Positions 4,242 to 39,817 of a stretch of 64,000 bases of DNA are shown one piece after another. The notes under the pieces were generated by a model. That model was given only the letters and a program-made list of their open reading frames with translations. It ran no database searches and was not told where the DNA came from. The position numbers were made by a program, and so were the translations under genes. Every line of letters begins with the position of its first letter. Position 1 is the stretch's first letter. Location: assembly GCA_016283935.1 (NCBI GenBank), contig JAEENX010000013.1, positions 97,759 to 161,758 of the forward strand, given 5' to 3'. The stretch comes from Bacilli bacterium. Lineage in GTDB: Bacteria > Bacillota_I > Bacilli_A > RF39 > UBA660.

Positions 4242-4655
4242 TCATCTTACATTTTCTTTAAAAAAAGTACTAAGCATGTTTTTATATGTTTCACGTGAAA
4301 CATCATCTTCAACTTGATTAATAATAGTAGAATTATATTTGTTTTTATTATCTCTTTCTAATAAAAAATATATATTATCTACCCTACTTGCTTTAGCAAC
4401 TTCTAGGCACATATCACATGGATATAAGCTAACATAAAGATCACATCCATCTAATCTCCAATCATTTAGATTCTTTTCAGCTTCTCTAATAGCTATTATT
4501 TCAGCATGATTAGTTACATCCGGTGTATTTAATCTATCATTATGTCCCCTACCTATAATTTTATTATTTTTAACCACTATAGCTCCTATTGGAATGTCTT
4601 TATTATCATAAGATATTTGTGCTTCTTTTATTATTTCCTCTATATATTCATTCAT
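4242..4655 (-). CDS. tadA: tRNA-specific adenosine deaminase TadA
   Basis: CDA-fold motifs HAEIIAIREA and PCDMC. The ORF-track start (4733) would read through the SRP RNA gene. The ATG at 4653-4655 (MNEYIEE) has a GAGGT RBS and gives a 137-aa protein. Confidence 0.85.
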   Translation of the reverse strand: MNEYIEEIIKEAQISYDNKDIPIGAIVVKNNKIIGRGHNDRLNTPDVTNHAEIIAIREAEKNLNDWRLDGCDLYVSLYPCDMCLEVAKASRVDNIYFLLERDNKNKYNSTIINQVEDDVSRETYKNMLSTFFKENVR

Positions 4656-4672
4656 AATTACCTCAATAAAAA

Positions 4673-4749
4673 AAATGCGCACACGATTAGTGAATGTTAT
4701 GGCTGCTGTGTTCCCACTCTGACCAGGTTCCAATATAACCGTTGCGCAA
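4673..4749 (-). ncRNA. ffs: Signal recognition particle RNA. This is the minimal 4.5S/scRNA type of about 77 nt.
   Basis: Minus-strand sequence UGCGCAACGGUUAUAUUGGAACCUGGUCAGAGUGGGAACACAGCAGCCAUAACAUUCACUAAUCGUGUGCGCA followed by U8. It contains the domain IV signature UGGUCAG...GGAA tetraloop...AGCAGCC, closed by a GCGCA/UGCGC terminal stem. Location between tadA and dnaX matches scr placement in Firmicutes. Confidence 0.8.
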
Positions 4750-4752
4750 AAA

Positions 4753-4781
4753 TATTATAACATATCCTATAAATTAATCAA
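4753..4781 (-). promoter_or_regulatory. Putative sigma-A promoter of ffs
   Basis: On the minus strand, TTGATT (plus 4776-4781), a 16-nt spacer, then TATAAT (plus 4753-4758), ending about 6 nt before the SRP RNA 5' stem. Confidence 0.4.
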
Positions 4782-4803
4782 ATAATTAATTTTCATAGTA
4801 TAA

Positions 4804-5192
4804 ATGTTTCACGTGAAACATAAGAAGTAATAAATATTTAAATTAAGGATAAATAATATGTAAATAATTAGATTTAAAAATAATAAATATATATCATAAA
4901 CAAATATTAATGTTTCACGTGAAACATTATAAAAATATAAATATTAAAAAAGAAAATAATAGGTCACTTTTCAAAATATAAAAGAGCATTAATTATCAAA
5001 AATAATTCAGTTTAAATGTATAAAATAGGGAAAATCAATAAAAAAATGTTTCATGTGAAACATTACAAAAATATAAATATAAAAAACAAAGTAATAGGGT
5101 ACTTTTTTTGAAATAAAAAGCATTAAATATCAAATGAACCAGCTTAAAAGTAAAGAATAGGGAATTGATAAAAGATGTTTCACGTGAAACAT
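4804..5192. repeat. Array of a perfect 18-bp palindrome inside diverged tandem units of about 105-135 bp
   Basis: ATGTTTCACGTGAAACAT at 4804-4821, 4910-4927 and 5175-5192; a CATGTG variant at 5046-5063. The AT-rich units 4928-5045 and 5064-5174 are about 75% identical. A fifth copy lies at 4286-4303 inside the tadA 3' end. Confidence 0.75.
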
Positions 5193-5218
5193 AAAAAAAG
5201 AAGCTATTAAGCTTCTTC
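5193..5218 (-). terminator. Rho-independent terminator of gyrA. The stop codon sits in the loop.
   Basis: Minus strand GAAGAAGC-UUAAUA-GCUUCUUU followed by UUUUUUU. Confidence 0.55.
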
Positions 5219-7840
5219 TTTATTTTCATTTACAATTTTGTCAAATGAAGTAGGGGACTCATTAGAATTTTCTGATGTTGATAACTCAGAATCTTCTTCA
5301 TCATCTTTGCTTGTTAAAGAAATTGTTGAAACATATTGATCTTCTTTAAGATTAATTAATCTTACACCTTGAGTTACACGTCCTAATTGAGAAATAGATT
5401 CAACTGTAATTCTAATAATCATACCAGATTCAGTAATAATTAATAAATCTAAATCATCAGTAACATTTTTGAATGCTACCATTGGACCGTTCTTTTCAGT
5501 AATATTAATTGCTGTTACTCCTTTAGATCCACGCTTAGTTAATCTATATTCTGATAATTTAGTTTTCTTTCCATAACCATTCTTAGTTACTATTAAGATA
5601 TTATCATCATCATGAGCTACATCCATACCTAAGCATTCAGCTCCATCAAGGTTAATACCTTTAACACCTGACGCAGTTCTACCCATAGGTCTTACATCAT
5701 TTTCGTTAAATACAACCATTCTACCAGCAGATGAACCTAAACAAACGTTATATGTACCATCTGTTAATAAAACATCTATTAATTCATCATTATCTTTTAA
5801 TGTAATAGCAATCTTACCAGTTTTTCTTATATTATCAAATTCTTCAATTGGAGTTTTCTTAATTAAACCTTGTTTAGTTGCAAAGATTAAGAATCTAGCA
5901 TCGTTATCACGAGAAACTCTAATAACTGAACTTATTTTTTCATCTTTTTCTAATTGAAGTAGGTTAATAATAGGTAATCCTTTAGATTGTCTACTATATT
6001 CAGGAATTTCATAACCTTTTATACGATATGTTCTTCCTTTATTAGTAAAGAACATAATATGATCATGAGTTGAAGCATTAATCAAGAATTTAACGTAGTC
6101 TTCTTCGTTAGTTGACATACCTTTTACACCAACGCCACCTCTGTGTTGAGTTCTATATGTATCAGTAGTTAATCTCTTGATATAACCCTTATCAGTTAAT
6201 GAAATCATAATATTTTGTTCTGGTATTAATGATTCATCTTCAATGAAATCAATAGCTGTCATATCAATGTTAGTACGTCTTTCATCACCGTATTTACGTT
6301 TGATTTCAAGCATTTCATCTTTAATAATACCTAATACTCTTGATTCATTAGCTAAGATATCATGATAATCAGCAATCTTTTCAGCTAATTCTTTTAATTC
6401 ATTTTCAATTGCATCTCTTTCTAATCCAGTTAACTTACCTAATCTCATATTTAAGATATCAGTTGCTTGGATATCGCTTAATGCAAATCTAGACATTAAT
6501 TCAGCTTTAGCAATTTCTTCAGTAGCACTATTTCTAATAATATGTACAACTTCATCAATATGATCTAAAGCAATACGTCTACCTTCTAAAATATGAACTC
6601 TATCTTCAGCTTTGCCTAATATATATTTAGTTCTTCTAATAATAACTTCTTTTTGATAATCAATATATTTAGAAATAATTGATTTCAATCCTAAAGTACG
6701 AGGAACACCATTATCAAGCATTAATAAGATAATTCCATAATTTTTTTGGAAATCTGTATGTTTATATAAATTATTTAAAATAACTTGAGCATTTGCATCT
6801 CTTTTTAATGTAATAGTGATTTTAACACCATTTTTTAAATCTGTATGATAATCAGATATACCATCTAATACTTTTGAATGAACAAGTTCTGCAACTTTAT
6901 TCTTTAATTCTAATGTATTTGTTCCATATGGAACTTCAGTAATAACAATTTGTTGTTTATTATTTTCTTCTATAATTTCAGCTCTAGATCTGATAGTAAT
7001 AGAACCTCTACCAGTTTCGTAAGCTTCAATAATACCTTTATTACCTAATATAACACCGCCAGTAGGGAAGTCAGGACCTTTAATATATTCCATTAATCCT
7101 CTAGTATCAATTTCAGGATTATCAATATATGCAACACATCCATCAATAACTTCACCTAAATTATGAGGTGGAATATTAGTTGCCATACCAACCGCAATAC
7201 CCATAGTACCATTTACTAAAATGTTAGGGAAGCGGGAAGGTAATACAGATGGTTCTTTCTTAGTAAAATCGAAGTTATCATCCATATTTACTGTATCTTT
7301 ATCTATATCTCTTAACATTTCAAGAGATAATTTAGATAATCTTGATTCAGTATAACGCATGGCTGCTGCGCCATCACCTTCGATATTACCAAAGTTACCA
7401 TGGCCATCAACCATTAAATATCTTTGGTTAAAATCTTGTGCCATTCTAACCATTGCTTCATAAATTGAACTATCACCATGTGGATGGTAATTACCCATAA
7501 CGTAACCAACTGTTGTAGCTGATTTTCTATGAGGTTTATCAGGATATAAACCAGATTCATTCATTGCCCATAAAATACGTCTATTAACAGGTTTTAAACC
7601 ATCTCTTAAGTCTGGTAAAGCTCTAGCAGTAATAACAGACATAGAATATTCTAAGAATGAAGTACCAACTTCATCTACAATGTTATTTTCTTCTAATGAA
7701 TCTCTTTCATGGAAATATCCATTAAATTCACTATTATGAATATCTAATGCATTATTTTCTTCATTGTTGATATCTGTTTGGTTTTCAACAGTTTCTTCTA
7801 CTTCTTCAGTAGTTTCAATATTCTTATTTTCTTCTTCCAC
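5207..7840 (-). CDS. gyrA: DNA gyrase subunit A
   Basis: [17 protein letters not shown], active-site region and C-terminal beta-pinwheel repeats. The N-terminus is unusually acidic and the C-terminal tail is Glu/Asp/Ser-rich. The true start within the first ~45 codons is uncertain. Confidence 0.9.
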
Positions 7841-7854
7841 TTTAAAAACCTCCC

Positions 7855-9780
7855 TTAAATATCTAAGTTAATATTACCGTATCCAGCATTTTCTACTATA
7901 AATTCACGTCTAGGTTCAACTTCGTCACCCATAAGTTTTTCAAATATAGCATCTGCTGCAACACAGTCATTAACTGTAATCTTTCTTAATACTCTTTGAT
8001 TAATATCCATTGTTGTTTCGTATAATTCCTCAGCATCCATTTCACCAAGACCTTTCATACGAGCAACTTCAAATTTAGTTTTAGGATCTAAATTATTAAT
8101 ATAATCATCTTTTTCTTTATCATTTAGTACATATTTACGAGTTTTACCATGCATTATTCTAAATAATGGTGGTTGAGCTGCATAAACATGACCAGCTTCT
8201 ACAATTGGTCTAAAGAATCTATAGAATAGGGTAAGTAATAATACTCTAATATGAGATCCATCGACATCGGCATCGGTCATGATTATTATTTTATGATATC
8301 TTAATTTTTCCAAATCAAATTCATCACCAATACCAGTACCAAATGCAGTAATAATTGTTCTAATTTCTTCATTTGATAATGCTCTATCTAATCTAGCTTT
8401 TTCTACATTTAAGATTTTACCTCTTAAAGGAAGAATTGCTTGAGTCATCGAATCTCTACCTTTTTTAGCAGATCCACCAGCACTATCTCCTTCGACTATA
8501 AATATTTCAGATTCAGTTGGATCTTTAGATTTACAATCAGATAACTTACCAAAGAATGAAGTTTGTCCAATTTCACTCTTACGAGTAATTTCTCTAGCTT
8601 TCTTAGCTGCATTTCTAGCTCTACAAGCTAACATTGCTTTTTGAACTATAGCTTTAGCTTCTTCTGGATTTTCTAATAAGAATCTTTCAAATCCTTGACT
8701 AAATACATCAGATGCAAGTTTTCTTACTTCTGAGTTTCCTAATCTACCTTTTGTTTGTCCTTCAAATTGTGGGTTAGGGTGCTTACAAGAAATAATCATT
8801 GTTAAACCTTCTTTAACGTCGTCTCCTGTAAGATTATCATCTTTTTCCTTTAGAATACCGTTCTTTTGTGCATATTTATTAATACAAGCAGTTAAAGCTC
8901 TTCTAACTCCTTCTTCATGTGTTCCACCATCATGAGTATTAATATTATTAACGAATGAATAAATATTATCATTATATGAAGTATTATATTGCATTGCTAC
9001 TTCAAACATAACGTTATCTTCTTCACCTTCAAAATAAATAATATCTTCATGAATTGGAGTTTTTCCTTGATTAATAAATTTTACGTATTCTTTAATACCA
9101 CCTTCATATAAGAAATGATCACCAGTAGTATCTTCTTCATCTCTATCATCTCTAAGATTAATAGCTAAACCTTTATTTAAGAAAGCTAACTCTCTTATTC
9201 TAGTTTTTAATGTTTCATAATCATAGATTTCAGAATCAAAAATGTCTCCATCTGGTTTAAATGTTACAGTAGTACCACTTCTATCGTCTTCATAAGTACC
9301 AATTTCTTTTAATGGTTCTACGGTATGTCCACCGTTTTCAAAACGAATAGAGTAGATTTTACCATTTTTATATACTTTAACTTCTACCCATTTAGATAGT
9401 GCGTTAACTACAGATGCACCTACACCATGTAATCCACCAGATACTTTATATCCTCCACCACCAAATTTTCCACCAGCATGTAATACAGTATAAACTGTTT
9501 CAACTGTAGATATACCTGTTTTAGGATGGATATCAACTGGAATACCACGACCATCATCTTTAACAGTTATACTATTGTCTTTATTAATTATTACATCAAT
9601 ATTATGACAATAACCAGCTAAAGCTTCATCTATCGCATTATCAACAATTTCCCATACTAAATGATGTAATCCTTTTAAATCAGTAGTACCAATGTACATA
9701 CCAGGTCTTTTTCTAACAGCCTCTAATCCTTCAAGTACTTGAATGTCGGATGCGTCATAATGTTCAATATTTTCAGCCAT
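7855..9780 (-). CDS. gyrB: DNA gyrase subunit B
   Basis: GHKL ATPase ([15 protein letters not shown]), Toprim ([14 protein letters not shown]) and the [12 protein letters not shown] motif. Confidence 0.95.
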
Positions 9781-9781
9781 A

Positions 9782-10879
9782 TTAATTCTCCTTTACCTCA
9801 ACCACACCATCTTTTACAACAAATATTTTTGAATCATTAGTTATTTTCTTACTTAATTTGTTTAATTCTGTTGTAGTTATGAATGTTTGAATATCATTAT
9901 CTATGAATTTTAATATATTATTTATTTTAGTTTTATCTAATTCACTAAATAAATCATCTAATATTAAAATAGGTATAATGTTCTTCTTATCTTTAAATAT
10001 CTCTATCTCAGCCATTTTTAAGGCTATTACAGCGTTTTTTTGTTCTCCTTCGGATCCGAAGTCCTTTAAAGGCTTTTCATCCAATATGAACTCAAAATCG
10101 TCTCTGTGAATACCAATATTAGTAACACCACTTGTAATATCTCTATTTTTATTCTTTTTATATAACTTTTCTATATCTTCTTTAGTTTTGTTTAAAAAAT
10201 CTGACTTATAAACAATTTTTAAATTATCCAAACCTGTAATCTTCTTATAATTATTAGTAATATATTTAGATATTTCTTCAATAAAATCATTTCTATATTC
10301 GTATATTTTTATACCATATTCAATTAATTTAGAAGTTATAATATCCAAATAATCTTGAGAAGCATTACCATTTAAATATAAAGTTTTTAAATAAGAATTT
10401 CTTTGTTTTAGTAATTTATTATATAAAGTTGTTATTTTTAAATATTCATTACTAAATTGAGATAGTTCAATATTTATCAATTTTCTTCTAGTATTTGGAG
10501 TATCTTTAACTAACTTAAGATCATCTAAAGTAAATAAAACAATATTTATATTTGATAAATAATCAACCAATTTAGGTATTTTTTTCTTATTTATCCATAC
10601 TTTTTTATTTTCATCTTTAGAAATAACAATTTTATAATCAATTTTATAATCATCAACTACAGTTCCTTCTACTTTGCAATTATCTTCATCAAATTTAATA
10701 ATTACATCATCTTTAGAACCTCTGAAAGACTTAGTTAAGGCTAATACATATATAGCTTCTACTATATTTGTTTTACCCATACCATTTTTTCCAATGATGA
10801 TATTTTTAGAAGGATTAAAATCCAAAACAAGTTTTTTGTAGTTACGAAAATTATTTATCTTTAAACTCGTAATTTTCAT
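9782..10879 (-). CDS. recF: DNA replication and repair protein RecF
   Basis: Walker [15 protein letters not shown] and the SMC-like signature/Walker B ([12 protein letters not shown]). Conserved position next to gyrB. Confidence 0.9.
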
Positions 10880-10988
10880 TTTTGCCCCCTAATTTTGATT
10901 TTAAGCAATTTTTATATGTTTTAGGTACTCCTATACCACAATATAATTATATCACAAAATAAGTGCCAAAAAAAGAAAAAAAGGCTTT

Positions 10989-32777: not shown

Positions 32778-32876
32778 AAAAAAAATAGAAGCCGGCCCCC
32801 TGAGACCAGCTTCAAAGAATAAAAAGGGGTTGGCTAGTGTGATACTAGCACCAATTCGCCTGTAAGTGAATTGGTA
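32778..32876 (-). ncRNA. Candidate small RNA of about 100 nt. It has its own promoter and terminator, and is C-rich (RsaE/RoxS-like CCCC motif).
   Basis: Minus strand: TTGACA-17-TAGTAT promoter (plus 32883-32911). Two hairpins follow (CCAATTC..GAATTGG, GCTAGT..ACTAGC). Then single-stranded CCAACCCCUUUUUAUUCUUUGAAG. Then a strong terminator hairpin GAAGCUGGUCUCAGGGGGCCGGCUUC plus U8. Confidence 0.4.
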
Positions 32877-33074
32877 AGATATATACTAATCGAAAGGGGT
32901 ATATTTGTCAACTAAAATATATCGATTTTTAGGTATTTTTCATAATTTTTTTACCAGGGTATAACCTCAGGTTATATCCTATAATTTAAATATAATTTCA
33001 AGTTATAAATGAGGTATTTTTTAGTATTTTATAGATTATAAATGTTATAATAAAAATATGAAAGGAGCATATAT

Positions 33075-36556: not shown

Positions 36557-36587
36557 AAAAAAACTAGCTTTAAACGCTAGTTTTTTT
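36557..36587. terminator. Bidirectional terminator between convergent genes
   Basis: CTAGCTTTAAACGCTAG flanked by A-run and T-run. Confidence 0.5.
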
Positions 36588-37722
36588 CATGCCATATAAC
36601 TTTACTCTTTTTAGTTTTAACTTCTGTTTTAAACTTCACTAGTAATGGTATAGCTATTATTGTTAATACTACATATAACATTACTTTAACATCATTAACA
36701 AAGAATAATAATATTGCTACAGTTATTACTCTAAATATATTTTGAGTACATTCATATAATAGATTAAAATTGTGAAATTCATAATTTTTTGATAACAATA
36801 ATAATTCTTTATTAAATGATTGTTCATACATTTTAGTTGCTAAACCACTTATAAATGTAATTATAAATAATAGAATTCCATATGTATTAATTTGTAATAT
36901 TTTAAATATAAGTAAGAATACAATACTAAATTTTAGATAATTCTTATCTTTATTAATTAATAAACCATATAAATAAACACATATTATAGTAGCTAATTGA
37001 GCTAATAAGTTTATTATTCCTACAGCAGTATATGTATTTTTAACATATATTACTATATATAGTGGTAATAAGAATGTTATTACATTTTGTAATTCGTAAC
37101 ATCCTATAGAAATAATACTAGATATATGTGTAACTCTTATGGTTTCAACTAAATCAATTTTAGTCTTATTTATTTCATATTCAAAATCCATTTTATAGAC
37201 GCAATATAATCCTACTAATAATAGCATAATTGATATATATGTTATTACATGTATAGAAACAAATTCTAATAATAATGAGCCAACATAAGAACTTAATAAT
37301 AATGCTAATTGATTTAATATAGATACCCAAGAATAATCTTTAGAAGTATTATTCTTATCAATTACTTGGAAAGTATAATATCTTCTAGACATCCAATATG
37401 CTCTTCTATAAAGAGCATATAAAAATGCTAGTAATATTAAATACCATATTTTTATTTTTACATAATTAAGAACTATCTGTACAAGTATAAAAGCTATTAT
37501 ACCAATTACAGTTAATATCTTATTAGAATGTCTTTTAGCTATATATATACATGGAAAAGATAGTATAAAAGAAAATATATTAACAAACAAATAATAGAAT
37601 ATGATATTATTTAAATCAAATCCTGCTTTAAATAATATAGTACCAATGAAAAGTTCTATAAGATTTCTTGCAAATGTTGATAAGAATACATATCTATTAA
37701 ACATCTTTCTATTCTTTTCCAT
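36577..37722 (-). CDS. Polytopic integral membrane protein (10-12 TM), function unknown
   Basis: ORF rich in hydrophobic helices. The likely start is the ATG at 37720-37722 (MEKNRK) with AGGTG RBS. Confidence 0.5.
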   Translation of the reverse strand: MEKNRKMFNRYVFLSTFARNLIELFIGTILFKAGFDLNNIIFYYLFVNIFSFILSFPCIYIAKRHSNKILTVIGIIAFILVQIVLNYVKIKIWYLILLAFLYALYRRAYWMSRRYYTFQVIDKNNTSKDYSWVSILNQLALLLSSYVGSLLLEFVSIHVITYISIMLLLVGLYCVYKMDFEYEINKTKIDLVETIRVTHISSIISIGCYELQNVITFLLPLYIVIYVKNTYTAVGIINLLAQLATIICVYLYGLLINKDKNYLKFSIVFLLIFKILQINTYGILLFIITFISGLATKMYEQSFNKELLLLSKNYEFHNFNLLYECTQNIFRVITVAILLFFVNDVKVMLYVVLTIIAIPLLVKFKTEVKTKKSKVIWHEKN

Positions 37723-37743
37723 ATTATTCACCTATTATCAATT

Positions 37744-37859
37744 ATATCATTCTAAATAAAAAAAGTGGACCTCTTTCGAGGTCCTTCAGGGGGTTTTGGT
37801 TGATATACTCTAACACTAAGTAAAAATCGTTAGAGATATCGGCAAGTTTTCCTTGCCTA
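37744..37859 (-). ncRNA. Candidate sRNA or terminator-containing 5' leader of about 115 nt upstream of the membrane-protein gene. It carries a CCCCC motif.
   Basis: Minus strand: TTGATT-17-TAATAT promoter (plus 37866-37894). Hairpins GGCAAG-GAAAA-CUUGCC and CUCUAAC..GUUAGAG follow. Then CAACCAAAACCCCCUGAA. Then terminator GGACCUCGAAAGAGGUCC plus ACUUUUUUUAUUU, ending about 20 nt before the downstream gene's RBS. Confidence 0.35.
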
Positions 37860-37924
37860 GTATAATATTACAGGAAATAGGGATAAAAATCAATAATAAT
37901 TACTTAATATGTATATAAGGTATA

Positions 37925-37956
37925 CACTTAATATTTGATATATAAAATATTAAGTG
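37925..37956. promoter_or_regulatory. Perfect 12-bp-arm inverted repeat (operator-like) upstream of the DUF3883 gene
   Basis: CACTTAATATTT-gatatata-AAATATTAAGTG, about 35 bp upstream of the 37990 start. Confidence 0.4.
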
Positions 37957-37989
37957 ATATTATATATAACCAAGTAAAGGGGAGTTTAT

Positions 37990-38967
37990 ATGTATCATGC
38001 ATATAATGTTGTTCACTTCTTAAATGGTGAAGGATATCAAAAGAGCACTATTATAGAAGATATAAAAAGAACATTTGAAGATTATAGAGCAGGTAAAGGT
38101 AATGATGCTATTTATCAATTCATTTCATCATTTAATAATTATCTAGTAAACAAAACACAAGAATGTTTGAATTTTGCTAACATAATGATGACAGATTGTT
38201 ATCCTAATGAATATCATCAATTATTAGAATACTTTTATATGCCATTCAAAAATTCATCAAATCCAATGGCAGATAAAGCAATATTAGAAGAATATTTTGA
38301 AATAGAAGATTTGAGATTAGATCAAGCGGTTATGATTCTTATAGGAGATAATTATCGTTTCTTATATAATGATAATCAATCTTTTTTAGATAGAATAAAT
38401 TTCTTCTTTAATTATGAACAAATATCATTTGAAGATATTGGAACTAAAGCAAGAGTAGGATGGTTCGAAAGAATGCCTTCTAATCCAAATGAAATTATTT
38501 TAGAATTTAATGAAACTATCCAAAATCCAAATGACCCTAATCAAACTAAAAAAGTAGGTAACTATGGAGAATTAATGTTCTATAATTATTTAACTTCAAT
38601 TGCAAATGAAAATATGCAAGTTATATGGGTATCCAGAGACATAGGTGATGGATTTGGTTATGATATAGCCGTATATGATCAATCAATTAATAAAATAACT
38701 TTATATGAAGTAAAGACAACAACTAAAGAAGAATATTTTAATGATACTACATTAAATGAATATGAATCTAGAATATGTAATTTAACTAAATCATATCCAG
38801 ATACTGATTTCCATATAATAAAAATATTGTTAGGAAATCAAATTAAAATGATTGATATTAATGATAAAACTGAAACAGTTTCAAATATAGCTAATCCTTC
38901 TGAGGGATTTAAAGTATTAAAGAAGTCAGATAAATTTATAAATTCTTATATGGCAATTAAAGAATAA
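37990..38967 (+). CDS. DUF3883-domain protein. The C-terminal domain is restriction-endonuclease-like (PD-(D/E)xK-related).
   Basis: C-terminal ...VGNYGELMFYNYL...VIWVSRDIGDGFGYDIAVYD...ITLYEVKTTT matches the DUF3883 signature (G.GE..V...L ... WVS....GYDI ... IEVKTT). The N-terminal ~190 aa is unassigned. Confidence 0.55.
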   Translation: MYHAYNVVHFLNGEGYQKSTIIEDIKRTFEDYRAGKGNDAIYQFISSFNNYLVNKTQECLNFANIMMTDCYPNEYHQLLEYFYMPFKNSSNPMADKAILEEYFEIEDLRLDQAVMILIGDNYRFLYNDNQSFLDRINFFFNYEQISFEDIGTKARVGWFERMPSNPNEIILEFNETIQNPNDPNQTKKVGNYGELMFYNYLTSIANENMQVIWVSRDIGDGFGYDIAVYDQSINKITLYEVKTTTKEEYFNDTTLNEYESRICNLTKSYPDTDFHIIKILLGNQIKMIDINDKTETVSNIANPSEGFKVLKKSDKFINSYMAIKE

Positions 38968-38983
38968 AAAACTAGGTTTTAAC

Positions 38984-39817
38984 CTAGTTTTTATTTGTTA
39001 AATTTAATGATTTAAGTGTTTCATCATGAAACACATCAAATAAAGTGATTTGTTTATATTCTTCTTGAGTATTAGCAATAAAAGTTTCTTCTATTTTTTT
39101 CTTTTCTTCTTCATTTTTGATATTTAAGATAGATTCTTTATACTCTTTAAGTGCTTTAGCAATATTTTCTGGATTTTCTGGATATAATCTTTCTATATTT
39201 TCTAATGAATTTGCCATACTCTTTAATTTATATGTAGTTGGTATATATCTACCTGATTTAATTGAAATATAATTTATAAGTAAATTTCTTAATTGAGTAT
39301 AATTAGATAATTGTTCCATGAATATATGTAGATTATCTGATCTATTCGATTTAATATTTTTTCCTATTATTGAATCTTTAGAAAAAGCAATATTTCTTTG
39401 ATTCATATTTAATTTTCTTAATACTAGATTAATAAATCTCTCGATTCTTTGTTTATCATTATCATCTAAAGATTTATCATGATAATAATTAAATTGTCTT
39501 TCATCAACTAACTCTCTAAATAAATCTACAACCTCATTTATATCAGGAGTTTCTTTATATATCTCAATTGGTTTAAAAATTTTAATGCCTTTAGCATATG
39601 GATATTTTCCAATATAGTTATGTACATTAAATTTTGTTAATGGATTACAATCTTCTAATGCATCCCTTAGATTAGTTCCTAATTCTATAGTAGCCTCATC
39701 AAAATCAGAAATATCTCTTACATTTTTTACATATGTTCCATTATATGGAACATATATTGCAGATGATTCTACATTGTTTCCATTTATGAAATAATAGTTA
39801 TCATTTTTGTTTGCCAT
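38984..39817 (-). CDS. Hypothetical protein, convergent partner of the DUF3883 gene
   Basis: 277-280-aa ORF with no recognisable motif. Confidence 0.35.
   Translation of the reverse strand: MANKNDNYYFINGNNVESSAIYVPYNGTYVKNVRDISDFDEATIELGTNLRDALEDCNPLTKFNVHNYIGKYPYAKGIKIFKPIEIYKETPDINEVVDLFRELVDERQFNYYHDKSLDDNDKQRIERFINLVLRKLNMNQRNIAFSKDSIIGKNIKSNRSDNLHIFMEQLSNYTQLRNLLINYISIKSGRYIPTTYKLKSMANSLENIERLYPENPENIAKALKEYKESILNIKNEEEKKKIEETFIANTQEEYKQITLFDVFHDETLKSLNLTNKN

What the first reader, a model, noticed from the sequence alone, without database searches (positions are those of the whole stretch)
37744..37894. Second promoter/terminator-delimited C-rich RNA (about 115 nt), directly upstream of a polytopic membrane-protein gene. 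It could be an sRNA or a riboswitch-like attenuator leader.
A minus-strand TTGATT-17-TAATAT promoter is followed by two hairpins, a CAACCAAAACCCCCUGAA segment (CCCCCU is complementary to SD-like AGGGGG), and a perfect terminator (GGACCUCGAAAGAGGUCC plus U7). It ends about 20 nt before the RBS of the 36577..37722 membrane-protein gene, which has its own -10. The layout fits either an independent sRNA or a cis-acting terminator/antiterminator leader. It matches no riboswitch class I can recall (not fluoride, preQ1, guanidine or ZTP).
Basis: seen in the sequence. Interest (0 to 1): 0.5.

Follow-up and report, generated by a model that had tools for sequence, protein, structure and literature searches.

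The report
Conserved C-rich small RNA gene
The flagged stretch is a real, free-standing gene for a small RNA of about 100 bases, found in hundreds of uncultured gut and rumen bacteria; it most likely silences genes by pairing with G-rich ribosome-binding sites, and it is not a switch for the membrane-protein gene next to it.

Summary
On the minus strand there is a promoter (37893-37865), two hairpins, an unpaired AUCAACCAAAACCCCCUGAA segment, and a terminator (37784-37767) followed by U7. The RNA is about 101 nt, not 115.

It is not a leader for the MFS gene. At least 119 metagenome contigs carry the same architecture in many gene contexts. In 78 of the loci fetched (about 130) it lies near recG: directly after it in 59 and convergent with it in 19. 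Four of four loci chosen only through RecG also carry it, with the 20-nt segment unchanged. P2 and the terminator covary (12/12 pairs), and the promoter position is conserved. No Rfam 15 family matches.

Best reading: a new family of the known kind of Firmicute base-pairing sRNA with a C-rich seed (RoxS/RsaE-like in mechanism, but not a member). The top candidate target is the recF ribosome-binding site (UUAGGGGG), which is conserved in 5/5 genomes.

A second conserved sRNA lies upstream of recG. It carries a complementary UCAGGGGG terminator apex in 34/43 copies.

The DNA encoding CCCCCUGAAG also serves as the attachment core for integrase-bearing mobilizable elements.

The targets are inferred, not shown.

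The parts
37888..37893 (-). -35 hexamer TTGATT of the sRNA promoter
   Evidence: Sequence. In homologues the same position holds TTGACA (44), TTGACT (22) or TTGATT (8) of 90 distinct copies, with a 17-nt spacer in 84/90.
37865..37870 (-). -10 hexamer TAATAT. The inferred transcription start is at about 37858/37857.
   Evidence: Sequence. In homologues a -10 (TATAAT, TATTAT, TATCAT, TAATAT...) mostly ends 4-7 nt before P1. The start site is inferred, not mapped.
37841..37857 (-). Hairpin P1 (GGCAAG-GAAAA-CUUGCC)
   Evidence: MFE fold. A 5-18 bp hairpin is present at this position in all 90 distinct full copies, with 48 different base sequences, e.g. GCGUGA/UCACGC, GUGUGA/UCACAC, UGACAU/AUGUCA.
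37802..37840 (-). Hairpin P2 (GAUAUCUCUAAC ... GUUAGAG-U-AUAUC), with the family core CUCUUACG...GUGAGAG
   Evidence: MFE fold. Six of six modelled pairs show compensatory changes, and 93.7% of cells are paired. RNAalifold agrees.
37785..37804 (-). Invariant segment AUCAACCAAAACCCCCUGAA. Positions 37801-37785 are unpaired and are the proposed seed.
   Evidence: Unpaired in the MFE and centroid folds. The opening energy is 0.1-0.5 kcal/mol. The segment is identical in 4/4 loci chosen only through RecG and in every copy retrieved.
37767..37784 (-). Intrinsic terminator stem-loop GGACCUC-GAAA-GAGGUCC
   Evidence: Terminator scan. Six of six pairs covary and 99.4% of cells are paired across the family. 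The sequence is interchangeable between genomes.
37758..37764 (-). U7 tract, the inferred 3' end of the sRNA
   Evidence: Sequence. A T-run follows the hairpin in every family member.
37783..37793 (-). CCCCCUGAAGG. In other genomes the DNA encoding this is the crossover core (att) for integrase-bearing mobilizable elements. It is unoccupied in the window.
   Evidence: The direct repeats flanking insertions in L065, L076, L108 and L127 share only CCCCCTGAAG(G). Integrase, Mob_Pre and AAA_25 genes lie next to the sRNA 3' end.
32778..32876 (-). Second conserved small RNA ('sRNA-A'), divergent from recG. Its terminator apex UCAGGGGG (32803-32796) is complementary to CCCCCUGA of the finding. It is a possible partner, by inference.
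   Evidence: Sequence. The family is seen in 43 loci, with a YCAGGGG(G) apex in 34. The 8-bp duplex is -17.3 kcal/mol, net about -8 to -12 after opening. It is not in Rfam: RsaE scores 22.6 bits against a gathering score of 79.
10880..10897 (-). recF ribosome-binding region AAAAUUAGGGGGCAAAAA upstream of the AUG at 10879. This is the candidate target of the seed, by inference.
   Evidence: It is the best of 86 start regions in the window, at -14.9 kcal/mol. The G5 Shine-Dalgarno sequence is conserved in 4/4 RecF-homologue loci, at -15.4 to -16.5. Net energy is -11.7 to -12.3 after opening. G5 upstream of start codons is rare, 17/597.
37741..37749 (-). Extended -10 (TGaTATAAT) of the downstream MFS gene. 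This is context and is not part of the sRNA.
   Evidence: Sequence. It is absent in L002, L010 and L078, where the MFS RBS follows the U-tract directly.

Best explanation
The element is a free-standing gene for a non-coding small RNA of about 101 nt. It belongs to a previously uncatalogued family that is widespread in uncultured, AT-rich gut, rumen and digester Bacilli. Their MAGs are labelled 'Bacilli bacterium' or 'Erysipelotrichales bacterium'.

A sigma-70-type promoter starts transcription at the base of hairpin P1. Hairpins P1 and P2 provide structure and stability. An intrinsic terminator ends the RNA.

The invariant, fully unpaired stretch AACCAAAACCCCCUGAA between P2 and the terminator is the working part. 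I infer that it base-pairs with G-rich sequences in other RNAs. [quoted passage not shown]

The best candidate target found is the recF ribosome-binding site (UUAGGGGGY). A second possible partner is the UCAGGGGG apex of the terminator of the neighbouring sRNA-A.

Separately, the DNA encoding CCCCCUGAAG is used as the attachment core by tyrosine-integrase mobilizable elements. These elements supply a replacement terminator when they integrate.

Shown here: the gene anatomy, family, covariation, synteny, independence from the MFS gene and use as an att site. Inferred: expression, pairing mechanism and targets.
For: **Anatomy and stability**
- establish the features and the fold.

**Family**
- All 90 distinct full copies fold as P1 + P2 + unpaired linker + terminator.
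- A covariance-model search scores the window copy at 76.5 bits, E = 5e-15.

**Covariation**
- 96.6% of cells are paired against 74% in shuffles.
- 12/12 pairs have changes on both sides.
- Slid controls reach at most 56%.

**Promoter**
- Its position is conserved.

**Independence from the MFS gene**
-.

**Synteny with recG**
- 59 loci have the sRNA directly after recG on the same strand, and 19 have it convergent.
- 4/4 RecG-anchored loci (L127-L130, about 63-67% RecG identity) carry it with AUCAACCAAAACCCCCUGAA intact but different terminators.

**Seed accessibility**
- Opening energy is 0.1-0.5 kcal/mol.

**Candidate target**
- The recF RBS is the top hit in the window.
- Its G5 Shine-Dalgarno sequence is conserved in 5/5 genomes.
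- G5 upstream of start codons is rare, 17/597.
- Net interaction energy is -11.7 to -12.3 kcal/mol.

**Established precedent**
- C-rich single-stranded regions of RoxS, RsaE and FsrA pair with Shine-Dalgarno sequences (PMC6158497, PMC8216469).

**No conserved reading frame**
- The P2-to-seed spacing differs by 1 nt between copies, which shifts the frame (seen directly).
Against: - No expression data exist. The transcription start and 3' end are inferred.
- Target prediction has little power. In the window, 8 start regions reach <=-11 kcal/mol against a mean of 5.3 for shuffled seeds, and the best shuffled energies (mean -14.0) approach the recF value.
- Any G5 Shine-Dalgarno sequence will automatically look complementary to a C5 run.
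- The whole recF leader is well conserved, so conservation of its Shine-Dalgarno sequence need not reflect sRNA pairing.
- No conserved target was found among genes flanking recG.
- Twenty invariant nucleotides is longer than most seeds. This could point to a protein or other ligand instead.
- The exact-match retrieval biases apparent invariance. Only 4 unbiased loci plus the MFS-anchored ones test it.
Confidence: 0.6

Rival explanations
1. It is a cis-acting leader, either a riboswitch or a terminator/antiterminator attenuator. Ligand- or signal-dependent read-through of its terminator would control the downstream MFS transporter gene.
For: - It lies directly upstream of the MFS gene, on the same strand.
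- In the close relatives L002, L010, L078 and L053, the MFS RBS follows the U-tract within a few nt and no separate promoter fits. There the MFS gene may depend on read-through from the sRNA promoter.
Against: - More distant MFS orthologues lack it upstream (L001, L003). In L001 it lies after the MFS gene.
- More than 100 other copies precede unrelated genes, integrases or nothing.
- It is linked to recG, not to MFS.
- The terminator arm sequences are swapped freely and can be element-borne, so no conserved antiterminator pairing is possible.
- No Rfam riboswitch or leader matches.
- In the window the MFS gene has its own extended -10.
Confidence: 0.03
2. Its main role is as one half of an sRNA-sRNA pair. 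Its C-rich segment would pair with the UCAGGGGG apex of the terminator of sRNA-A on the other side of recG, so that one RNA titrates or destabilises the other. This would be sponge-like, as with RosA-RoxS or RsaI-RsaE.
For: - The apex motif YCAGGGG(G) is conserved in 34 of 43 body-anchored sRNA-A copies, while the lower stem varies.
- There is a perfect 8-bp complement (CCCCCUGA/UCAGGGGG) of -17.3 kcal/mol, net -8 to -12 kcal/mol after opening.
- It was the dominant recurrent complementary site in about 1.1 Mb of held DNA.
- The two genes flank recG in the same genomes.
- There is precedent in PMC8216469.
Against: - A whole clade (L014, L039, L057, L061, L067, L085, L121) and L015 have sRNA-A with a UUCG or other loop and no G-run. 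They still keep the finding's segment unchanged.
- In sRNA-A the G-run is partly buried in the hairpin, with an opening cost of 5.5-9.4 kcal/mol.
- Full-length duplex predictions are no better than shuffles.
- No covariation is possible because both motifs are invariant.
- The G-run could instead pair with sRNA-A's own ACCCCU.
Confidence: 0.15
3. It acts through a protein or other non-RNA partner. The long invariant unpaired segment would be a binding site, for example for a KH-type or other RNA chaperone, a ribonuclease or the ribosome, rather than an antisense seed.
For: - Twenty invariant nucleotides is longer than needed for seed pairing, and no statistically enriched target set was found.
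- The P2 stem sequence (CUCUUACG...GUGAGAG) is also more conserved than pairing alone requires.
Against: - There is no positive evidence for any protein partner.
- The GGA at the terminator base is not conserved in unbiased copies, which argues against a CsrA-type site.
- RoxS and RsaE are likewise almost identical across families yet act by pairing (PMC6158497).
- The unpaired C-run between hairpins is the classic layout of a Firmicute antisense seed.
Confidence: 0.12
4. It is not a host gene at all. It would be a sequence spread and kept uniform by mobile elements, either an attachment-site remnant or an element-borne RNA.
For: - The 3' part (CCCCCUGAAGG plus terminator) is duplicated at the far end of inserted elements and is element-supplied.
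- Integrase, relaxase and Fic genes often lie next to it.
- The same GGAGCCGAAAGGCUCC terminator recurs in diverged copies.
Against: - The 5' two-thirds (promoter, P1, P2, AUCAACCAAAA) is never part of the repeats. It diverges with the host and covaries.
- The position next to the core gene recG is conserved.
- The window copy has no integrase nearby.
- Only one hit was found in the viral contig collection.
Confidence: 0.03

Closest known systems
RoxS / RsaE (Rfam RF01820), the C-rich-region sRNA of Bacillaceae and Staphylococcaceae
   Same: - Size of about 100 nt.
- Own sigma-A-type promoter and intrinsic terminator.
- Hairpins flank an unpaired C-run complementary to G-rich Shine-Dalgarno sequences.
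- Near-invariant sequence across genera apart from the terminator (PMC6158497).
   Different: - No match to RF01820.
- A single C5 run instead of two to four duplicated C-rich motifs.
- Different hairpin layout and different sequence (AACCAAAACCCCCUGAA against the ACCCCUUUGUUU type, the latter recalled from memory).
- Different host lineage and genomic position (next to recG).
- Regulators are unknown.
Other Firmicute C/CU-rich seed sRNAs: FsrA, CsfG (B. subtilis), LhrC family (Listeria), csRNAs (Streptococcus)
   Same: The working principle is the same: unpaired C-rich stretches in loops or linkers that occlude ribosome-binding sites (PMC8216469; LhrC and csRNA from general knowledge).
   Different: - No Rfam hit to any of them at E<=10.
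- The promoter looks like a housekeeping sigma-70 type, not sigma-F/G (CsfG), and has no visible Fur box (FsrA). These points come from inspecting and were not formally tested.
RosA-RoxS and RsaI-RsaE sRNA-sRNA (sponge) pairs
   Same: A G-rich stretch in one stand-alone sRNA is complementary to the C-rich region of another (PMC8216469). Here the UCAGGGGG apex of sRNA-A faces CCCCCUGA of the finding.
   Different: - The G-run here sits in a terminator apex, not in a single-stranded region.
- It is missing in one clade.
- sRNA-A also carries its own C-rich region.
- No experimental support exists.
RNA genes used as integration sites: tRNA, tmRNA, ffs (4.5S), and the enterobacterial sRNA genes ryeB and ryeE
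   Same: Tyrosine integrases insert at the 3' part of a conserved, hairpin-containing RNA gene and restore its 3' end (PMC3603311; PMC12540744). Here integrase-bearing elements flanked by CCCCCTGAAG(G) repeats follow the sRNA.
   Different: - The crossover core lies in the functional unpaired seed rather than in a stem.
- The elements are small mobilizable elements (integrase + Mob_Pre + AAA_25).
- The host RNA is a previously undescribed sRNA.
FopS (Rfam RF04319, Bacteroidetes)
   Same: This was the only Rfam model to align at all, at 23.9 bits and E = 0.15.
   Different: It scores far below the gathering score of 56. The alignment rests on the generic terminator and U-tract, and the phylum is different. 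It is a chance match.

Membership tests
RsaE/RoxS (RF01820) | Scores at or above the family's covariance-model gathering score (79 bits) | tested here: not met
   No RF01820 hit on 37650-38000 even at E<=10. There was none at gathering score in the window or in 9 related loci.
RsaE/RoxS (RF01820) | Two or more duplicated C-rich motifs (CRR1-4; two identical 10-nt repeats) | tested here: not met
   There is a single C5 run in the transcript. Family copies also have one. The definition is taken from PMC6158497.
RsaE/RoxS (RF01820) | C-rich motif is single-stranded and complementary to Shine-Dalgarno-like G-rich sequences | tested here: met
   It is unpaired in the MFE and centroid folds. The opening energy is 0.1-0.5 kcal/mol. 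It is complementary to the recF Shine-Dalgarno sequence UUAGGGGG.
RsaE/RoxS (RF01820) | Control by Rex / ResDE-SrrAB and a regulon of central-metabolism mRNAs | not testable with these tools
   There are no expression data and no whole genome for regulon prediction.
Trans-acting base-pairing sRNA (functional class) | Independent transcription unit with its own promoter and intrinsic terminator, conserved irrespective of neighbouring genes | tested here: met
   Promoter position is conserved in 72/90 copies. The terminator covaries. Downstream genes vary.
Trans-acting base-pairing sRNA (functional class) | Conserved accessible seed with conserved complementarity in target mRNAs | tested here: inconclusive
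   The seed is invariant and accessible. One candidate, the recF RBS, is conserved in 5/5 genomes. There is no statistical enrichment in the window and no genome-wide test.
Trans-acting base-pairing sRNA (functional class) | Detectable discrete transcript | not testable with these tools
   No transcriptome data were available.
Riboswitch / transcription-attenuation leader | Stable association with the regulated downstream gene family | tested here: not met
   MFS orthologues in L001 and L003 lack it upstream. Most copies follow recG and precede unrelated genes.
Riboswitch / transcription-attenuation leader | Conserved alternative (antiterminator) pairing that competes with the terminator | tested here: not met
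   Terminator arms differ between copies with identical upstream sequence and can be supplied by mobile elements. The invariant segment stays unpaired in all folds.
Riboswitch / transcription-attenuation leader | Match to a described riboswitch or leader class | tested here: not met
   Rfam 15 gave nothing, at either the gathering or the E<=10 threshold.
RNA genes serving as attB for tyrosine integrases | Integrase gene adjacent to the 3' end of the RNA gene | tested here: met
   A Phage_integrase + Arm-DNA-bind_4 protein lies on the opposite strand in 18 loci. In 10 of them it begins 104-195 nt after the start of the search 20-mer in the sRNA. This is not the case in the window itself.
RNA genes serving as attB for tyrosine integrases | Direct repeat of the RNA gene's 3' portion at the far end of the insert | tested here: met
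   Partial 3' copies lie 0.9-12.4 kb downstream in L009, L026, L034, L047, L065, L076, L108, L115 and L127. The shared core is CCCCCTGAAG(G).
FopS (RF04319) | Score at or above the gathering score (56 bits) | tested here: not met
   It scores 23.9 bits, E = 0.15, and the alignment is driven by the terminator.

The most novel reading that the evidence does not exclude
recG is bracketed by a conserved two-sRNA module. The finding (C-rich seed) and sRNA-A (C-rich region plus a complementary G-rich terminator apex) would talk to each other and together set the translation of recombination-mediator genes such as recF through their unusual G5 Shine-Dalgarno sequences. The DNA that encodes the seed doubles as the landing pad for mobilizable elements, which rewrite the sRNA's terminator on arrival. 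This would be a small-RNA layer of DNA-repair and recombination control in a large uncultured branch of gut Bacilli, physically coupled to horizontal gene transfer.
Probability: 0.15. Interest if true: 0.7.

Novelty: new member of a known kind. Interest (0 to 1): 0.5.

Why it matters
Almost nothing is known about RNA regulators in the uncultured AT-rich gut and rumen Bacilli labelled 'Erysipelotrichales' or 'Bacilli bacterium'. This finding gives a well-defined and very widespread sRNA family:
- more than 119 contigs from human gut, rumen, digesters and other environmental samples;
- a clear structure;
- a 20-nt invariant accessible segment;
- a fixed genomic address next to recG;
- a testable target (the recF ribosome-binding site);
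- a possible partner sRNA.

It also adds a case in which mobile elements integrate into the seed-encoding part of an sRNA gene and replace its terminator. That is useful for annotating integration sites and element boundaries in metagenome-assembled genomes. The family, and sRNA-A, could be submitted to Rfam.

Tried and rejected
- **Rfam.** I scanned the whole window at gathering score, the locus at E<=10 and 9 related loci. There were no real matches. FopS and SNORD11 are chance hits.
- **BLAST of the 3' part against 50,697 phage records**. It returned only generic terminator look-alikes in enterobacterial phages and was uninformative.
- **Full-text search for the sequence string**. Nothing was found.
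- **MAFFT alignments A1 and A2.** These could not align P1, so model R1 contains only P2 and the terminator. P1 was assessed by per-sequence folding instead.
- **Full-length duplex prediction between the two sRNAs**. It was no better than shuffles. I rejected it as a test and replaced it with a site-specific duplex plus opening-energy calculation.
- **Search for conserved targets among orthologous genes around recG in 51 loci**. None were found.
- **Enrichment of complementary start regions in the window against shuffled seeds**. It was not significant.
- **CsrA-type GGA site at the terminator base.** Rejected because it is not conserved in unbiased copies.
- **Small-peptide coding.** Rejected because the frame through the conserved segment shifts between copies.
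- **An odd hairpin + GCAGGCCCCCUGAAG + terminator element in L031 and L088**. I first considered it a paralogue. I now interpret it as an att-repeat remnant of the variant with the AGAGAGC terminator.
Full report
**Observation**

- -35 TTGATT at 37893-37888, a 17-nt spacer, and -10 TAATAT at 37870-37865;
- hairpin P1, GGCAAG-GAAAA-CUUGCC (37857-37841);
- a long hairpin P2, GAUAUCUCUAAC...GUUAGAG-U-AUAUC (37840-37802);
- an unpaired stretch AACCAAAACCCCCUGAA (37801-37785);
- a perfect 7-bp GC-rich hairpin GGACCUC-GAAA-GAGGUCC (37784-37767);
- AC plus U7 (37764-37758).

The RNA folds at -36.1 kcal/mol against -18.4 +/- 3.2 for dinucleotide shuffles (z = -5.5), and the C-rich stretch is unpaired in both the MFE and centroid structures. 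The terminator scan lists the hairpin; it found 3 sites in 3.5 kb against 0.4 expected.

The promoter hexamers are not significant on their own in this 25% GC sequence. The transcript would be about 101 nt rather than 115. The downstream ORF 36577-37722 is an MFS_1 transporter, with its own extended -10 (TGaTATAAT, 37749-37741) and RBS (AGGUGA, 37733-37728).

**Not a known RNA family**

- Rfam 15 finds only the SRP RNA in the window at gathering score.
- At E<=10 the locus gives a sub-threshold FopS alignment resting on the terminator (23.9 against 56 bits) and a snoRNA chance hit.
- Nine related loci also give no match over this RNA or its neighbour.
- A full-text search for the sequence returned nothing.

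**Not tied to the membrane-protein gene**

Three relatives of the MFS protein were found in genome collections.
- The closest (84% identity, L002) has the element upstream.
- The 75% and 70% relatives (L001, L003) do not.
- In L001 the element lies just downstream of the MFS gene instead.

**A large family**

They come from human gut, rumen, digesters and other environmental samples. All share the layout: a TTGACA-type -35, a 17-nt spacer, a -10, P1, P2, the unpaired segment, and a terminator with a U-tract. P1 and P2 differ widely in sequence.

Of 90 distinct full copies:
- 72 have a promoter match of >=9/12;
- 84 have a 17-nt spacer;
- the -10 mostly ends 4-7 nt before P1;
- P1 is a 5-18 bp hairpin in every copy, with 48 different base sequences.

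A covariance model (P2 + terminator) scores the window copy at 76.5 bits, E = 5e-15. On the model alignment, 96.6% of cells are paired (shuffles 74%), all 12 pairs have changes on both sides, and slid controls reach at most 56%. RNAalifold on an independent MAFFT alignment agrees: 13 of 15 pairs have compensatory changes, including P1 pairs.

No reading frame is conserved through the invariant segment, because the P2-to-segment spacing varies by one nucleotide.

**Genomic address**

I clustered the flanking ORFs. One cluster was a protein of about 665 aa, shown to be RecG by Pfam domains. It lies next to the RNA in 78 loci:
- in 59 loci the RNA sits on the same strand, with recG ending a few tens of nt before the RNA's promoter;
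- in 19 loci, including the window, it is convergent and 0.2-3 kb away.

The exact-match retrieval makes the 20-mer invariant by construction. I therefore fetched four loci through RecG homologues alone (63-67% identity; L127-L130). All four carry the RNA (60-72 bits). In all four, AUCAACCAAAACCCCCUGAA is unchanged, while P1, P2 and the terminator differ.

In L130 the RNA precedes a cation-efflux gene, with the NOV_C and MFS genes nearby as in the window.

The relatives are MAGs labelled 'Bacilli bacterium' or 'Erysipelotrichales bacterium'. They encode SpoIIR, SpoIID and ComK. The window itself matches rumen metagenome assemblies.

**Integration site**

Many copies are followed by short tandem repeats (for example TAGGTACCCAAATAGGTACCCA) and, on the opposite strand, a tyrosine integrase.

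An integrase cluster (Phage_integrase + Arm-DNA-bind_4) is present in 18 loci. In 10 of them it begins 104-195 nt after the start of the search 20-mer in the sRNA. It is often accompanied by a Mob_Pre relaxase and an AAA_25/DnaB-like protein, which are the makings of integrative mobilizable elements. Fic-domain genes are also common there.

The model search found partial 3' copies 0.9-12.4 kb downstream in nine loci. In L065, L076, L108 and L127 the full and partial copies share only CCCCCTGAAG(G) and have different terminators. The crossover therefore lies in the DNA encoding the C-run, and the element supplies the terminator of the resident gene.

This explains why the same GGAGCCGAAAGGCUCC terminator recurs in diverged copies, and why a 3'-only remnant exists (L017).

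The 5' two-thirds of the gene is never part of the repeats. It covaries and stays next to recG, so the RNA is a host gene that elements target. The same happens with tRNA, tmRNA, ffs and some enterobacterial sRNA genes (PMC3603311; PMC12540744).

**How it probably works**

The layout is that of the Firmicute C-rich-region sRNAs (RoxS/RsaE, FsrA, CsfG): structured ends and a fully accessible C-rich linker (opening energy 0.1-0.5 kcal/mol). Their C-runs pair with G-rich Shine-Dalgarno sequences (PMC6158497, PMC8216469). By inference, this RNA does the same.

Among 86 start regions in the window, the best complement is the recF ribosome-binding site, AAAAUUAGGGGGCAAAAAUG at -14.9 kcal/mol. It is the only G5 Shine-Dalgarno sequence in the window.

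I fetched four RecF-homologue loci (64-89% identity). All keep UUAGGGGGU or UAAGGGGGUU before the start codon, with duplexes of -15.4 to -16.5 kcal/mol, or -11.7 to -12.3 net after opening. G5 within 20 nt of a start codon is rare, 17 of 597.

Caveats:
- Shuffled seeds reach similar best energies in the window.
- The whole recF leader is conserved.
- No conserved target emerged among recG-neighbouring genes.

recF is therefore a candidate, not a result.

**A possible partner RNA**

I scanned all held DNA for complements of the segment. The dominant recurrent site was the terminator apex of a second small RNA. This 'sRNA-A' lies at window 32876-32778 on the minus strand and is divergent from recG.

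It is a very conserved family: ACCAAUUC...GAAUUGG, GCUAGUAUCACACUAGC, CCAACCCCUUUUUAUUCUUU, then a terminator. I found it in 43 loci when anchoring on its body. Of these, 34 have YCAGGGG(G) at the terminator apex while the lower stem varies. Rfam gives only a sub-threshold RsaE alignment, 22.6 against 79 bits.

UCAGGGGG is a perfect 8-bp complement of CCCCCUGA, at -17.3 kcal/mol and net -8 to -12. This resembles the RosA-RoxS and RsaI-RsaE pairs.

Against this idea:
- One clade of sRNA-A has a UUCG loop and no G-run, yet keeps the finding's segment unchanged.
- The apex is partly base-paired.
- Full-length duplex prediction is uninformative.

I rate this a secondary hypothesis.

**Verdict**

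The riboswitch/attenuator reading is not supported. In a few close relatives (L002-type) the MFS RBS abuts the U-tract, so that gene may depend on read-through there.

The element is an independent, conserved sRNA gene: a new family of a known kind. It has a concrete but unproven target hypothesis (recF), a possible partner sRNA, and a demonstrated second life as an integration site.

Noticed in passing
window 32778-32876 (minus strand); promoter TTGACA 32911-32906 and TAGTAT 32888-32883: A second promoter- and terminator-delimited small RNA ('sRNA-A'), divergent from recG. It was found in 43 loci and its body is nearly invariant (GCUAGUAUCACACUAGCCAACCCCUUUUUAUUCUUU). In 34 of 43 copies the terminator apex is YCAGGGG(G). 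It is not in Rfam: RsaE scores 22.6 bits against a gathering score of 79.
   Followed up: partly
window 10880-10960 (minus strand); L131-L134 positions about 320-400: The recF 5' leader is strongly conserved across genomes: an extended -10 (TGTGATATAAT), a small hairpin (GGUAUAGGUGUACC) and an unusual G5 Shine-Dalgarno sequence. In the four relatives a ComK-domain gene lies directly upstream of recF.
   Followed up: partly
L065 2463-12554; L108 153-12562; L076 1682-8525; L127 12156-17367; also L028, L049, L058, L059, L080, L085, L093, L102, L111, L123: Integrative mobilizable elements of about 5-12 kb (tyrosine integrase with an arm-binding domain, Mob_Pre relaxase, AAA_25/DnaB-like protein) are inserted at the 3' end of the sRNA gene. 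Tandem arm-type repeats such as TAGGTACCCAAATAGGTACCCA lie next to the junction.
   Followed up: partly
L009 about 1800-2700; L121 about 4600-5650; 24 loci in all: Two families of Fic/DOC-domain proteins are encoded directly downstream of the sRNA, on the same strand, in 12 loci each. In L009, L026 and L115 the Fic gene sits between the sRNA and a partial 3' copy 1.3 kb away, so it is a minimal inserted cassette.
   Followed up: no
L014 (minus) 2603; L039 6739; L057 (minus) 1751: A conserved protein of about 555 aa with unknown function has the ribosome-binding region ACGGGGGUUUUAAAAUG. This gives 9 bp of complementarity to AAAACCCCC of the finding (-16 kcal/mol). It occurs in the clade whose sRNA-A lacks the G-rich apex.
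   Followed up: no
window 32957-32979: A hairpin, GGGTATAACCTCAGGTTATATCC, lies in the long (about 160 nt) AT-rich stretch between the sRNA-A promoter and the recG start. It may be part of a recG leader. It remains unexplained.
   Followed up: no
window 38967-38992: A perfect 11-bp palindromic hairpin (AAAAACTAGGTT-TTAA-CCTAGTTTTT) lies between two convergent genes: the NOV_C-domain protein (37990-38967) and a 280-aa protein with no Pfam match. It scores as a terminator on both strands.
   Followed up: no
window 4668-4753 (minus strand): Bacterial small SRP RNA (55.3 bits). This is the only Rfam family detected in the window. The window also holds recF, gyrB and gyrA (about 7840-10879, minus strand), so it lies near the replication-origin gene cluster.
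   Followed up: no
L122 840-880: Immediately after the sRNA terminator there is an inverted partial copy of the conserved segment (CCTTCAGGGGGTTTTGAGTG). It is possibly a remnant of an element inserted in the opposite orientation.
   Followed up: no
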